Source: Eledone cirrhosa (taxonomy: Eukaryota). Taken from it: 64,000 nucleotides of DNA. Shown here piece after piece: positions 3,255 to 64,000 of the stretch. The notes below the pieces were generated by a model. It searched no databases, was not told the DNA's origin, and saw only the letters and a list, made by a program, of their open reading frames with translations. A program made the translations under genes and the position numbers. How positions within the stretch are numbered: position 1 is the first letter of the stretch; each line of letters begins with the position of its first letter. The stretch spans positions 318,928,001 through 318,992,000 of the forward strand of contig OZ024743.1 of the NCBI GenBank assembly GCA_964016885.1. Reading direction: 5' to 3'.

Positions 3255-4082
3255 AACCGCTTTTGGTTTTATAATATAAAATAGTTTGTTTTAAAGAGTT
3301 TATATTTATCTAAAAATCTTTCTTCATAATTTTATGTAAGAACTTTTGTTAAGGAAAAAGAAAAGGAACCGATAGTCAAGTCGAACCAAGAAAACAATTC
3401 TTCCACTGGACTTTTCATTGCTGAAACTATCTGCCGGTCGCAACTCTTTGCAAAAGGAGCACCGTGAAATACAGTATTTTGCTCAACAGCATAACGCGGT
3501 GTCTGGTCCAGGAACCGAACATACGATCATATGATGGTTAGTCCAACACCATGACTACTACGTTTGAAAATCCAATTTAATAATGAAGATAATTAGTTAT
3601 ATTATTAAGTTCTTACAACATTCTTCATTATTTTCAAAATCATTAATTTAATGTTAACACATTTAATGAAGTAAACATTAAAATATAATTGAATATAGAT
3701 ATGCAACGAGGAAAGACAATTAACCCCAAACATTAATATTCGTTAAATATGCTAATTTTTCACGCCAACTCGTGTACAGTATTGTATATCTTACTACTGA
3801 TTCTCTCATCACTACTTCAATACGAACGGTGAAAACTATACTTCGCTCAGGTGGTCTATTACGGAGTTGTCTACCGTACTTGCTGAAATGATTAAAATAA
3901 TATTAGTTATTGAGTTAATGGCTTTTCCAACTGTATCAGTGTTTCTAATTAGATATTTTTGTTCCCAACTACATTAAATATGTTAACACTTCACTGTCTT
4001 TGCCTCATCTCCCTCGCTTTCTGTCTGTCTGTCTCTTTGCGTGTATATATATATATATATATATATAGTTTTAATATAGATG

Positions 4083-4133
4083 AGATTCTACAGGACTAGA
4101 ACTGTTTCATTCATTAGAAATCATCAGGAATCT
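4083..4133 (-). ncRNA. Type I hammerhead ribozyme in PLE 3' pLTR
   Basis: Reverse complement AGATTC-CTGATGA-tttctaatgaat-GAAA-CAG ttctagtc CTG-TA-GAATCT. Confidence 0.85.
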
Positions 4134-6706
4134 GGGTATCAAAAAATAAATATGGTATTTATAGGTCTCTACAAGTGGTAGGAGAGGGTGGGGAGTGGGA
4201 TGGGTGCAGGTCATTGGTTGATAGAAAAGGGAATTCATTAAAAGCTAATTCTACAAAGCTATAGTTAATTTATATTTATTTATGTTTTTAGAGTAACAAA
4301 GGCAGACAGAATTCTATAAACAGGTTCCGGATGGCATACCATTCCTTGTCAATAAGTTTCTCTTAAGCTAGCAGATGTCTATAAAATCAGTGGGGGGTCA
4401 TTCATGCTCGATAGAATTAAAGAAAAGGGAGATTCTTTAAAAGCTAAAGTCATTAAGGTTCTACTAAGTGACAAAGGTCTAGGGAATTCTACAGACAGAT
4501 TCAAAATACTGAGTGCATATCTTACTATTATCTTCGAACTTCTCTTAAACTAATCAACAATATGCCAAATCAACAGACACATTCACAAAAAAACAAAAAA
4601 ACCCCAAAAAACAAAAAAACAAAAAAACAGAAAAACAAAAAAAAACAAAAAAAAAAAAAACCACACCTAAAAAACAAAAAAACACACATACTCACTCACA
4701 CACTTACGCGCAACCATAAACACACACACAAACACATATACACACATAAAAACACACACACATATATAAAAAATATATAAATATATACAAATATATATTC
4801 ATGTACACACACATACATACACACATACATACATACATATATAAAATACATATACACATATACATACGCACACATATATATATATATATATATATATATA
4901 TATATATATATATATATATATACATATATATATATATATATACACATATATATATATATATATATATACACATACACATACACACACACACACATACACA
5001 TACATATATATATATACATATATATATATACATACATATATATACAAACATATATATATATATACACACACACACAGATACACACACACATACACATACA
5101 TACACATATGTATAAATATCTATACACACACACATACACACACATATATATATATATATACACATATACACACATATATATATATATATATATATATATA
5201 TATATATATATATATATATATACATATATATATATATATATACACATATACACATATATATATATATATATATATATATATATATATATATATATATATA
5301 CATATATATATATATATATACACATATACACATATATATATATATATATATATATATATATACATATATATATATACATATACATATATACACATATACA
5401 TACATATATATATATATATATATCTCTATACACACACATACAAATACATATACATATATATATATATATATATATATATATATATATATATATATATATA
5501 TACATATACACATATATATATATATATATATCCATACATACACAAACATACACATGCATACACAGACCTATACATAAATATACACATATATATACAGACA
5601 TATAACGCACATATACACATATATATATATATATATATATATATATATATATATATATATATATATATGTATATATATACACACACATATACACACACAC
5701 ACACACACACATATATATATATATATATATATATACACACACACGCGCGCATACACACACACACACACCCACACACAAAATATATATACACACACACATA
5801 CAAATACATACATACATACACATACACATATATATACATATACATATATATACATATATATACATATATATATACACATATGCATATATATATACATATA
5901 CATATACATACACATACATACATACACATACACACATATATGTACATATACACTCACAAATACACACACATACACACATATATACATATACATACACACA
6001 AACACATACATATACACATATATATATATATATATACACGCACACATATACACACATACATACGCACACACACACACATATATATATATATATATATATA
6101 TATATATATATATATATATACATAAATATATACACACACATATACAAACATACATATGCATACATATATATATATATATATATATATATATATATACATA
6201 TACATACATATATATATATATATATATATATACACACACACACATACATATACATATATACACACATACATACATACATACATATACACAAACACATACA
6301 AACATATACCTACATAAATATACACACATAAAACACGTATTCACACAAACATATATATATACACATATATATATACATATATATATATATATATATATAT
6401 ATATATATATATATAAATATATATATATATATATATATATATATATATACATATATATACATATATATATATATATACACACAACACATACACATATACA
6501 CATATACAAACAAATATATACACATACAAGTAAATAGGTACTCAATAAATATACGCATATACACAGGCACATAAAGACACCTCTACAGGCAGAAGAAGTA
6601 GATACAAAAGAGGTACTCACATGACCATAGTGGCCGTATTTCAGGTTGAGGAGGGGTGGGGGTAGGGTGGGGAGGAGGTATAGGGGCCAATAGGGGGAGG
6701 TCGTTT

Positions 6707-8347
6707 TTAGCCATCGGGCTTTAACACTGGCTTAAAGTGTTTGAATGTTGCAAAGTTCTTGTGCATGCAGTTCGGGCAGTGTTCAGAGAGTTTGTTCAGT
6801 AGCGGGCCCTTGGCGAATAAAATTTCGTAGCTCTCTGAAATACAAAGGTCGCAGCCCTTGTGTCCTCCGTTGTAAGAGCGCGCTTTCTGGAGTATTTTCC
6901 AATTAAGCGTGAAGGGGGTGGAGTTCCTTTTGAGGTCCCAAACGTAGGAGGCGAGTGTTGTTTGGTTTGATTTATCCGGTCTTCTGAAGGAGTGGGTATG
7001 GGCATACCAGCGGGTCTTAAAGGTGTTGGAGGTCATGCCGATGTAAGTTTTTTTGCAATCCTCGGTGCCCGAAATGACATCGCATTTGTATACGATGTCG
7101 TTTGTGAGGCATTTGTTTTCTAGTGGGCATGTTTCCTTATTTAGGCAATTACATAGAGCCCCAGTCCGGGGATTGGTTTCGGAGGTGGTTGGCTTATTTA
7201 GTTTAGAGTTGTGGTTGGCTATATTCCTAGCTAGGTTAGGTGTGGTGGAGTAAGACAGTCTTATAGTGTTCTTATTAAAGATGGTGTAGTACCTATGTTG
7301 TATGGGGAAGTGTAATTTCAGTAAAGTGAAGAAAATCCTAGCTATCGGAGTAGATACCTCTCTATTGAAGGGAGGGTTGTACCAGCTAATCTGCCTATGT
7401 CTATTCCTCCTCTGCAATTTTGCGGTGGTTTCTAGGTAAGTTATCTTATCTTTAAATCCGCTACGGGCTAGGGCGTCATTGTAGTAGGAGGCAGATGCAT
7501 TAAAAATATCTTTGTTGGCGGAGAGGCCAGATATTCTAATAGAGACGCTTTTTACTAGGTTATCAGTAATGTTTTGGGGGTGGTTTGAATTAACATTAAT
7601 ATATTTAAGGGACTCATTAGGTTTGTGGTACGGGTAATAGAGGGAAGTATCTAGGTCGAGAGTGACATCTAAGAAGTTGGCCCTAGTCAAATTAGAATCT
7701 ATAGTTATACTAAATCCTAGATTAGAGAAGAAAGAGCTTAAGTTTTTCCGAAACCCATCGGTGGTTCTGGGGCTAACCTTATGCAGGGCGAAGAGGCCGT
7801 CGTCTCGGTATAAACCTCCAGTAAGGCCGGTAAAGAGGTTCTTCAGGTTATGTAGGATGTACAGGCCCACAAGGTCGCTAATTTCAGCCGAGTCACTCGC
7901 CCCCATGCTAACGTCAAATGGGGTCTGAGATTTCTTGTTGATCCAGTAGGATCCATCGTGGTATAGAAAGGTCTTACGAGCGTGGAGGATAATAACTTGC
8001 TCGGCATCGGTAATGGTGGTAAAATTCCTGGCAAAGTTAATTGCGTCCTTCAGGAGGGGCTCCGAGATAGAGGCATAGTAGTTTTCTATGTCGAGTTGCA
8101 GGAAGCGAGTGTGGTGTTTATCGGGTAATTCTTGGAACCATGATATTGCCTCAGATGTTCTACTCCAGAGTGGAAGTGGTGAGGCCGCCCGCAATAATGG
8201 TAGAACTCTATCCAGGATCTTCTTACTGATAGAGCCGATGTCAGAACGAGTGGGGTTGATAAGTCTGACTGATGGTTTGTTGAGGAAGTTTCCCTTATGG
8301 TCCTTCAGGGTAAAGTGCGGGGTCTTTACCCTTAAAGGTTCGGTTCG
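6707..8347 (-). CDS. Penelope-like reverse transcriptase + Cys-rich linker + GIY-YIG endonuclease (N-terminally truncated, uninterrupted frame)
   Basis: RT motifs [35 protein letters not shown] linker; IVY...YIGMT..FKTRW..H; CDLC and C-terminal CMH. The first 19 aa of the ORF-track call derive from the inverted microsatellite. Confidence 0.93.
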
Positions 8348-9092
8348 GTGTATATGTATTTTATATATGTATGTATGTATGTGTGTATGTATGTGTGTGT
8401 ACATGAATATATATTTGTATATATTTATATATTTTTTATATATGTGTGTGTGTTTTTATGTGTGTATATGTGTTTGTGTGTGTGTTTATGGTTGCGCGTA
8501 AGTGTGTGAGTGAGTATGTGTGTTTTTTTGTTTTTTAGGTGTGTGTTTTTTTTTTTTTTTTTTTTTTTTTTTTTGTTTTTCTGTTTTTTTTTTGGGGGGG
8601 GGGGGGTTGTTTTTTTGTGAATGTGTCTGTTGTGAATGTTTTTGTTTTTTTGTGAATGTGTCATATTGTTGATTAGTTTAAGAGAAGTTCGAAGATAATA
8701 GTAAGATATGCACTCAGTATTTTGAATCTGTCTGTAGAATTCCCTAGACCTTTGTCACTTAGTAGAACCTTAATGACTTTAGCTTTTAAAGAATCTCCCT
8801 TTTCTTTAATTCTATCGAGCATGAATGACCCCCCACTGATTTTATAGACATCTGCTAGCTTAAGAGAAACTTATTGACAAGGAATGGTATGCCATCCGGA
8901 ACCTGTTTATAGAATTCTGTCTGCCTTTGTTACTCTAAAAACATAAATAAATATAAATTAACTATAGCTTTGTAGAATTAGCTTTTAATGAATTCCCTTT
9001 TCTATCAACCAATGACCTGTACCCATCCCACTCCCCACCCTCTCCTACCACTTGTAGAGACCTATAAATACCATATTTATTTTTTGATACCC

Positions 9093-9143
9093 AGATTCCT
9101 GATGATTTCTAATGAATGAAACAGTTCTAGTCCTGTAGAATCT
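9093..9143 (+). ncRNA. Type I hammerhead ribozyme in inverted PLE pLTR
   Basis: AGATTC-CTGATGA-...-GAAA-CAG..CTG-TA-GAATCT; 6-bp helix I. Confidence 0.85.
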
Positions 9144-63504: not shown

Positions 63505-63547
63505 CCGAATTGTTGAGCGCTTCAAACAGTAGCGAACTTAAGTTACA

Positions 63548-63721
63548 ATGGAAAAACTGGCAAGGTTGGCGTCACTGAAAGATATCCTCCTACCTGGGAA
63601 ACGAGAATACACCAGTGATTTCATCAAGAGTACGGACTCCCTTGTCCGTAGGATGAGATGGAGGGCGTTCCACTTTGAAAGAGGAACGCCTAAAATTACC
63701 AACACCCAAAACATGGAGTAA
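63548..63721 (+). pseudogene. N-terminal fragment of a Penelope-like ORF
   Basis: MEKLARLASLKDILLPGKREYTSDFIKSTDSLVRRMRWRAFHF resembles the S.K.I..P....Y...I.....RMRW.A.F N-terminus of invertebrate PLE proteins. Confidence 0.6.
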
Positions 63722-63765
63722 AATACTTCAACAACATGTGTACCTGTCTCTACCACACCAATTCG

Positions 63766-63820
63766 ACTGCCTGAAGAGGTCACAGCCAATGATGGCTGTC
63801 ACCGAAATATATATAGCAGT
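63766..63820 (+). ncRNA. Type I hammerhead ribozyme
   Basis: ACTGC-CTGAAGA-GGTc ACAGCCA atga TGGCTGT cACC-GAAA-TATATA-TA-GCAGT. Confidence 0.82.
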
Positions 63821-64000
63821 ACATCTTTAATAAAGGAAGCCAAATTTTAAATATTTAACTTAATTATTTTACATTACTCCGGAGTAACCAAACCAACCTG
63901 CGTACTTCGTCGAGTGCTCCAATTTTCATACTGAGGTGTCGGTAAACAGCCAATATATACTAATCTCTCTCTCTCTATATATATATATATATAAGAGGGC

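What the first reader, a model, noticed from the sequence alone, without database searches (positions are those of the whole stretch)
4067..63870. Recurrent architecture: two copies joined head-to-head, 3' ends pointing outward into (TA)n
Seen at 4067-9226, 28555-32006, 32545-32850, 51704-53040, 53060-53490, 61395-62375 and 63400-63870. The left arm is on the minus strand and the right arm on the plus strand (HHR sense), the 5' ends meet at an asymmetric junction, and the outer ends run into TA repeats, often via a TTTA or TATA overlap. Six or more different families share this polarity. Inference: both ends of a break in a self-complementary (TA)n tract prime reverse transcription (twin priming or fold-back), and the two cDNAs are then joined. 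This would be a shared insertion pathway that seeds palindromes in the genome.
Basis: partly seen in the sequence, partly recalled or inferred. Interest (0 to 1): 0.75.

Follow-up and report, generated by a model that had tools for sequence, protein, structure and literature searches.

The report
Twin-primed head-to-head Penelope insertions
These mirror-image insertions in TA repeats are the known head-to-head footprints of Penelope-like jumping genes and of ribozyme-bearing elements that likely borrow their enzyme, and their copies suggest that both cut DNA ends likely copy the same capped RNA from two fixed start points, which would explain how this class makes its inverted ends.

Summary
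In detail: all 7 listed loci, plus 5 more in the window, are head-to-head pairs with 3' ends facing outward. Locus 4067-9226 holds a 5'-truncated ORF with the motifs of Hydra-clade Penelope-like elements (PLEs). The inverted 5' copy, one-sided tail and (TA)n targeting are in print for PLEs (PMC8557442, PMC3846280), so the architecture is known; the mechanism is open. In samples from the same genome, outward pairs beat inward 22:0, 14:1, 12:1, 12:0 and 5:1 in five families. In family A, 64 of 64 typed junctions pair one tailed with one tail-less end; both arms share subfamily variants (26 of 26; 22% shuffled); 5' ends stop at a wall 30 nt behind a TATA box, with a non-genomic G in 1730 of 2109 copies. 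This fits twin target-priming on one capped sense RNA (about 0.7) and argues against fold-back, an antisense template and assembly artefact. TA self-complementarity is not needed. No RNA data, long reads or empty site were available. This scan has reported the same reading before on other DNA, in this genome and others.

The parts
4067..8347 (-). Family A left arm: 5'-truncated Hydra-type PLE, tail-less (short) 3' end running into TA at 4067
   Evidence: junction with about 1 nt overlap
6707..8345 (-). PLE ORF (reverse transcriptase + C-terminal GIY-YIG), lacking about the first 166 of 713 residues
   Evidence: 98% to the full natural ORF of L068; weak Pfam GIY-YIG E=0.034
8348..9226 (+). Family A right arm: inverted pLTR copy with long (tailed) 3' end into TA
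   Evidence: 99.2% to left arm over 510 bases
9063..9093 (+). TATA box (9063) and predicted transcription start (A at 9093, Inr-like); the wall at which 5' ends of family A copies stop
   Evidence: sequence
9093..9143 (+). Type I hammerhead motif (mirror copy at about 4082-4133 on the minus strand)
   Evidence: pattern; helix I/III match the Hydra HHR table of PMC8557442 File S2 by eye
9159..9226 (+). 68-nt tail between the short and the long 3' end; in tandem copies it leads into the next ORF
28555..30143 (-). Family B left arm, 3.4 units of a 466-bp hammerhead tandem (non-LTR retrozyme type), short end
30135..32007 (+). Family B right arm, 4.0 units, long end (tail about 31949-32007)
32538..32869 (.). 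Family F (related to D) decayed pair: left short end, right tail 32785-32869
51619..53040 (.). Family D pair: left arm with tail (51619-51698), right arm short end; HHR core at 52940
53058..53490 (.). Family B relative (77%): left arm is the tail only, right arm nearly one unit with short end
61392..62376 (.). Family C pair: left arm one full unit with short end, right arm with tail 62291-62376
63396..63965 (.). Family E pair: left short end, right arm with tail; spacer holds a remnant of a Hydra-type ORF start (63548-63778, +)
   Evidence: tblastn E=1.7e-5
28150..28445 (.).
39010..39238 (.). Family G pair, left long, right short (not listed)
41745..41942 (.). Family G pair, left long, right short (not listed)
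49326..49581 (.). C-like pair, left short, right long (not listed)
58913..59110 (.). Family G pair, left short, right long (not listed)

Best explanation
These loci are head-to-head insertions of Penelope-like elements with Hydra-clade protein motifs and of hammerhead-bearing non-coding elements that likely borrow such an enzyme, and each was likely made by twin target-priming on one capped sense RNA. Shown: polarity, one short plus one long 3' end per locus, shared variants in both arms, a 5' wall 30 nt behind a TATA box with a non-genomic G, and direct (not mirrored) microsatellite on both sides. Inferred: the GIY-YIG endonuclease (likely as a dimer) cuts both strands of a (TA)n tract; each 3'-OH primes reverse transcription at one of two fixed internal sites a tail-length apart (68 nt in family A, 59-95 nt in others); one cDNA displaces or follows the other on the RNA; each stops at random or runs off the cap; the two cDNA 3' ends are joined with 0-5 nt of overlap or a few added bases; second-strand synthesis completes the palindrome. 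Priming near the RNA's 5' end gives about 200-bp palindromes; priming in a read-through second copy gives long arms such as 4067-8347.
For: Polarity outward:inward 22:0 (A), 14:1 within 5 kb (B), 12:1 within 10 kb (E, by eye), 12:0 (C, by eye), 5:1 (D, by eye). End types: 64 of 64 typed among 66 family-A junctions are long+short; B 12 of 12 typed among 30, E 4 of 4 typed among 10; C 10 of 10 typed among 20; window 12 of 12. Two polymorphic sites agree between arms in 26 of 26 cases against 21.5% (max 38%) in 1000 shuffles. 5' wall: 22 of 47 unselected partner arms and 19 of 71 long arms end at -63..-66, none at -67..-70; exact matches fall from 3276 to 1408 when the pattern is extended 9 nt upstream; 704 loci have both arms ending there. 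Base before the start A: G 1730, A or T 379, genomic base C; 12 of 14 in stored loci. Family C: 5 of 38 arm ends within 11 nt of the same TATA+30 position (p 0.002); family E: 6 ends at -227..-232, two with a G in place of C. Flanks share same-strand TA interruptions in 9 of 19 loci against 3.3 shuffled (p 0.0005), mirrored in 4. Illumina reads of related samples show the same wall and both 3' ends and contigs show joints across the palindrome centre. In vitro, a PLE protein cuts and extends both strands, starts at two internal sites that bound the tail and is predicted to be a dimer (PMC11167929).
Against: No RNA run was listed, so the start site and cap are inferred. Part of the G excess can come from the partner arm's own G at the junction (seen in several strings); the extra G may also be untemplated addition rather than cap copying. 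Family B shows no clear 5' wall. Arms can be homogenised after insertion: at 28064-28367 even the TA flank is mirrored, so shared variants do not prove one RNA molecule. Possible exceptions: L058 (B) looks short+short; L088 has two long ends 8.7 kb apart with another ORF between. About 10 of 71 long arms have no inverted partner at their 5' end, and 14 more could not be followed to their end. How two cDNAs cover the same stretch of one RNA is not shown. No enzyme is tied to families B, C, D, F, G by test. Samples are the first matches on one contig or the best-scoring matches; two pairs of loci are segmental duplicates. No empty site was recovered.
Confidence: 0.7

Rival explanations
1. Twin priming, but on two separate RNA molecules (one per protein subunit); arms look alike because one source locus dominates in a cell or because arms are homogenised later.
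For: Both arms cover the same RNA stretch, which is simplest with two templates; mirrored flank at 28064-28367 shows later homogenisation can happen. It explains polarity, wall and extra G equally well.
Against: 26 of 26 concordant variants, including 200-bp loci and arms 4 kb apart (99.2%); strict long+short pairing (64 of 64) needs coupling of the two priming events, which two independent RNAs would not give without a further rule.
Confidence: 0.17
2. Self-priming or fold-back: one cDNA (or an antisense template, as proposed in PMC3846280) folds back and copies itself; the endonuclease resolves the far end.
For: Some junctions lie in local palindromes with overlaps of 16-46 nt (L049, L134, L294); shared variants follow automatically.
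Against: The tail-less arm reaches further 5' in 25 of 64 loci and the tailed arm in 13: fold-back from the tailed arm cannot give the first, fold-back from the tail-less arm cannot create a tail. Both arms can each carry their own extra G at the start site. The wall and G mark the 5' end of the sense RNA.
Confidence: 0.07
3. Endonuclease-independent capture: fragile, self-complementary (TA)n tracts break and both ends prime on any available RNA.
For: 58 of 62 family-A loci have TA on both sides; ends overlap TA by 1-6 bases; many families nest in the same tracts.
Against: Only hammerhead/tail-bearing families show it; the window's abundant SINE-like repeat shows no near-identical pair of this kind. 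Ends are fixed to the base. The same build occurs in non-TA targets with target duplications (PMC3846280).
Confidence: 0.04
4. Library or assembly fold-back artefact.
For: Palindromes in TA-rich DNA are hard to assemble; one locus has a mirrored flank (28064-28367); no native long reads were seen.
Against: Arms end at two different fixed sites; unique flanks are not mirrored at 5 of 6 loci tested, and the one high score (28555) compared windows that both include TA arrays; decayed arms differ; independent short reads and contigs show the same ends and strand-switch joints.
Confidence: 0.02

Closest known systems
Hydra clade of C-terminal-endonuclease Penelope-like elements (Craig et al. 2021, PMC8557442; parts 1-2 of 10, section 11, passages and supplement part 2 seen)
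   Same: Single ORF with RT and C-terminal GIY-YIG, RW(R/K), DKT, CxCx5C linker, no CCHH, type I hammerhead in the pLTR, (TA)n target; an inverted 5'-truncated copy is noted for Penelope-13_HM and drawn as typical for PLEs; a family from an octopus is listed.
   Different: Tails here are 59-95 nt, not 30-40; unit is about 4.8-6 kb because of a microsatellite-rich 3' region; strict long+short pairing, 5' wall and extra G are not described in the parts read.
Adineta vaga Penelope elements with inverted pLTRs (Arkhipova et al. 2013, PMC3846280; passages seen)
   Same: Head-to-head inverted pLTR, tail on one of the inverted copies, TATA and Inr-like motifs in the pLTR, microhomology at 5' junctions.
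   Different: They have 8-10 bp target duplications in ordinary DNA; the paper favours self-priming on an antisense template and leaves the question open, whereas these data point to two target-primed cDNAs from sense RNA.
Poseidon element PAc in vitro (Frangieh et al. 2024, PMC11167929; parts 1-2 of 4 seen)
   Same: Cuts AT-rich DNA on both strands, extends both, two internal RT start sites that bound the tail, uncleaved RNA is the main template, predicted dimer.
   Different: Other clade; in the parts read it does not link the two sites to the two arms of inverted insertions, and start sites did not differ between strands in vitro.
Metazoan non-LTR retrozymes (PMC4209133 part 2 of 4; bioRxiv 10.64898/2026.07.22.740005 part 1 of 5 seen)
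   Same: Families B and C: non-coding tandem units with a type I hammerhead in each unit, proposed non-autonomous derivatives of PLEs.
   Different: Here they also carry the PLE two-arm, two-end signature.
LINE-1 twin priming (Ostertag and Kazazian 2001; recalled, not read)
   Same: Both target strands prime on one RNA; head-to-head junction with microhomology; 3' ends face outward.
   Different: In L1 the second primer anneals at variable internal sites and the arms barely overlap; here two fixed sites a tail apart give overlapping arms, hence palindromes.

Membership tests
EN+ Penelope-like element (family A) | Single ORF with RT and C-terminal GIY-YIG endonuclease | tested here: met
   713-aa natural ORF in L068 with YRDD and IVY...YIG motifs; Pfam GIY-YIG only E=0.034, no RT hit
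EN+ Penelope-like element (family A) | Tandem copies forming pLTRs, inverted 5' copy, tail at one end | tested here: met
   L004, L068 tandem
EN+ Penelope-like element (family A) | Type I hammerhead in the pLTR | tested here: inconclusive
   Core motifs and helices I and III present by pattern; Rfam negative; minimum-energy fold does not give the full ribozyme; cleavage untested
EN+ Penelope-like element (family A) | RT groups with PLE/telomerase RTs in a phylogeny | not tested
   No reference PLE sequences in session; PDB search found nothing relevant
Hydra clade | RWK-like motif and DKT in place of DKG | tested here: met
   RWR and DKT in the ORF against the description
Hydra clade | CxCx5C linker; CCHH absent; CxxC and CxH around the catalytic E and N | tested here: met
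   Read from the translation
Hydra clade | Insertion into (TA)n | tested here: met
   58 of 62 loci with TA on both flanks; 5762 long ends directly followed by TA
Hydra clade | Generally short (<3 kb) | tested here: not met
   Tandem period about 4.8-6 kb owing to a microsatellite-rich stretch behind the ORF; a tendency in the paper, not a strict criterion
Non-LTR retrozyme (families B, C) | Non-coding tandem units with a type I HHR motif in each unit | tested here: met
   466-bp unit, 7 HHR cores; family C multi-unit arm in L312
Non-LTR retrozyme (families B, C) | Self-cleavage and circular RNA | not testable with these tools
   No RNA run listed
L1-type twin priming | Both target strands prime on the same RNA molecule | tested here: inconclusive
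   Variants agree 26 of 26 but later homogenisation is not excluded

The most novel reading that the evidence does not exclude
Two-ended priming is the normal, not accidental, way that endonuclease-bearing Penelope-like elements insert: a dimeric enzyme uses one capped sense RNA twice, from two fixed sites, without hammerhead cleavage, and joins the two cDNAs head to head. The same machine moves non-coding hammerhead tandems in trans. This would be a third mode of retrotransposon integration beside LINE-type and LTR-type, and it would explain the inverted pLTR and the one-sided tail together.
Probability: 0.55. Interest if true: 0.75.

Novelty: new member of a known kind. Interest (0 to 1): 0.5.

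Why it matters
How Penelope-like elements, the closest relatives of telomerase, make their inverted ends is stated as unresolved in PMC8557442 and PMC3846280. Thousands of young copies here give a genome-scale footprint that favours one answer (sense, capped RNA; two target-primed cDNAs; two fixed start sites) and makes it directly testable with an existing in vitro system. It also means that this pathway seeds hundreds to thousands of near-perfect palindromes (704 of one short type alone), which annotators may take for MITEs, microRNA hairpins or assembly errors.

Tried and rejected
Rfam: no hammerhead hit at gathering score or among the top 150 of 515 weak hits, which were microsatellite look-alikes. 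Pfam and PDB sequence searches did not name the ORF. Idea that one arm is always a whole number of units (circular template with mutual blocking): seen at 30135-32007, 61392-61892, 53058-53490 and L148, but 12 of 60 family-B ends in the tail against 13% expected is weak; kept as a lead only. Hammerhead-cleaved template: only 6 of 132 family-A arm ends lie at -21..-27, near the predicted cut at -20, against 60 at -63..-67, so at most a minor route. A 5' wall at the hammerhead edge as a general rule: rejected, families B and E lack it there. Expression: no RNA holder listed. Empty-site test on L200: unique flanks were not covered by the four runs. Run X15 gave 2 reads only. Literature searches for twin priming, cap-derived G or start-site run-off in PLEs listed no paper that makes this link; most subscription journals are not searched, figures are not held, and the bioRxiv supplement could not be seen, so absence from print is not established.
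Full report
Observation. A self-comparison of the window and the sequence confirm seven head-to-head pairs. Each has one arm that stops at a 'short' 3' end and one that carries a further 59-95 nt tail. Five more loci of the same build lie in the window (28150-28445, 39010-39238, 41745-41942, 49326-49581, 58913-59110), so 12 of 12 are long+short. The window lies in a 3.0-Gb genome.

What the elements are. 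Locus 4067-9226 holds an open frame at 6707-8455 on the minus strand that is 98% identical to residues 167-713 of an intact natural ORF in L068. The protein has an RT core, a C-terminal GIY-YIG and the motifs given for the Hydra clade of Penelope-like elements: RWR, DKT, CxCx5C, no CCHH, CxxC and CxH near the end. No tree was built. A remnant of a related ORF start lies in the spacer of 63396-63965 (E=1.7e-5). Families B and C are non-coding hammerhead tandems. Hammerheads rest on core motifs and helices read by pattern; Rfam did not score them.

What is in print. Craig et al. (PMC8557442) describe the inverted 5'-truncated copy, the tail at one end and (TA)n targets, and call the mechanism unresolved. 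Arkhipova et al. (PMC3846280; passages) note that head-to-head is the most frequent arrangement, propose self-priming on an antisense template and leave a sense template open. Frangieh et al. (PMC11167929) show cutting and extension of both strands and two internal start sites. Schostak et al. (PMC2377424; passages) place the Drosophila promoter in the pLTR. [quoted passage not shown] An octopus repeat annotation (PMC13282606; passages) says nothing on this structure in the places found.

Polarity. Family A has 3276 exact hammerhead matches; among the first 100, neighbours within 20 kb are 22 outward and 0 inward; the overlapping list shows one inward neighbour at 6.8 kb. Family B: 14 to 1 within 5 kb in the first 100 of 10394. 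By eye: E 12 to 1, C 12 to 0 (one locus is doubly inverted), D 5 to 1. The three inward adjacencies (two distinct loci) are separate insertions parted by TA.

End types. I fetched 60 of the 65 hammerhead-anchored family-A clusters (two were over the size limit, three were left out) and 70 regions holding the first 71 tail-anchored matches. Of 66 distinct outward junctions, 64 could be typed and all 64 are long+short. B: 12 of 12 typed among 30; E: 4 of 4 among 10; C: 10 of 10 among 20; D: 1 of 1 among 4. Possible exceptions are L058 (short+short) and L088 (long+long, 8.7 kb apart with another ORF between). The short arm reaches further 5' in 25 loci, the long arm in 13, equal in 26. A fold-back of the tailed cDNA must leave it the longer one, and a fold-back of the tail-less cDNA cannot add a tail, so both arms were likely primed separately. 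Junctions overlap by 0-5 nt in 42 of 66, have added bases in 18 and overlap by 8-29 nt in 6.

One template. Two common subfamily variants agree between arms in 26 of 26 cases, against 21.5% in shuffles, and private changes are shared too (L095, L161, L207). Later homogenisation is not excluded: at 28064-28367 the TA flank itself is mirrored.

The 5' wall. In the tail-anchored sample, 22 of 47 partner arms and 19 of 71 long arms end at -63..-66 from the short end and none at -67..-70. Genome-wide, a 9-nt upstream extension of the pattern cuts matches from 3276 to 1408, and 704 loci have both arms ending there. The wall is an A 30 nt behind a TATA box in an initiator-like context (window 9093; consensus recalled). 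The genomic base before it is C, but among non-C copies G stands there 1730 times and A or T 379 times; part of this excess can be the partner arm's G. Family C has 5 of 38 ends at its own TATA+30 position (four of the 38 are reference ends, not true ends), family E six ends at -227..-232, family B no clear wall. I infer run-off at the capped 5' end of sense RNA, with the hammerhead uncleaved: only 6 of 132 ends lie near the predicted cut.

Target. 58 of 62 family-A loci have TA on both sides, and interruptions of the TA are shared in direct orientation more than by chance (9 of 19 against 3.3, p 0.0005; mirrored 4), so the tract existed before and is not a mirror product. TA is a preference of this clade, not a requirement of the architecture.

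Independent data. Illumina reads of two related samples show a depth step and loose ends at the wall, loose TA behind both 3' ends, and strand-switch joints; contigs of another sample show many joints across the palindrome centre. No RNA run, long read or empty site was available.

Earlier notes of this scan, consulted after my reading was set, report the same twin-priming and start-site reading in this and other genomes; they are not evidence. One adds a hairpin just behind the ends; I see such a motif by eye at the start of the tails of A, C, D, E, F and G but not clearly in B, and did not test it.

Verdict. Real, not an artefact; known architecture of a known class; the mechanistic footprint answers part of an open question and is testable. 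Interest 0.5.

Noticed in passing
window 28064-28367: A 304-bp near-perfect palindrome in which about 90 bp of interrupted TA flank is mirrored into the right arm, between the short-end position and the tail: a secondary conversion event or a local assembly error.
   Followed up: partly
L004:1918-1994: Reads and contigs of organism A show a head-to-tail joint going back 74-78 nt around the family A hammerhead: a minimal tandem retrozyme apparently derived from this pLTR.
   Followed up: no
G000:C1:83679791-83699003: Twelve tandem copies of a 1.08-kb family A derivative on the minus strand followed by a plus-strand copy 7 kb on; not fetched.
   Followed up: no
window 9159-9190, 62291-62320, 63875-63890, 51670-51698, 32785-32810, 28368-28400: Tails of six families begin with a small RCTC...GAGY hairpin motif a few bases behind the short end; a candidate start signal reported in earlier notes of this scan.
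   Followed up: partly
L088:about 1500-8200: An intact 969-codon frame with an RYVDD RT and C-terminal GIY-YIG, an Asn-rich start: a PLE of another clade between two family A arms.
   Followed up: no
window 4857-6700: The family A element carries about 1.8 kb of (TA/CA) microsatellite behind its ORF, so it brings new target sequence with it.
   Followed up: no
window 24964-25130, 26540-26700, 32310-32476, 32929-33045, 55834-56008, 1842, 9458, 54218: Single-armed hammerhead-bearing copies at the edges of TA tracts; different families nest in each other's TA flanks.
   Followed up: partly
window 23776-23991: Remnant similar to the C-terminus of the family A endonuclease (tblastn E=0.001).
   Followed up: no
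window 12447-13157, 36445-38939, 27174-27908: Fragments of non-LTR retrotransposons (RVT_1 hit at 37983-38939) and a frame that resembles a Tc1/mariner transposase (recalled, no Pfam hit).
   Followed up: no
L148; window 53058-53490: Two family B loci where the long arm is just the tail and the short arm about one unit, as if two enzymes on one circular RNA blocked each other; not significant in 30 junctions.
   Followed up: partly
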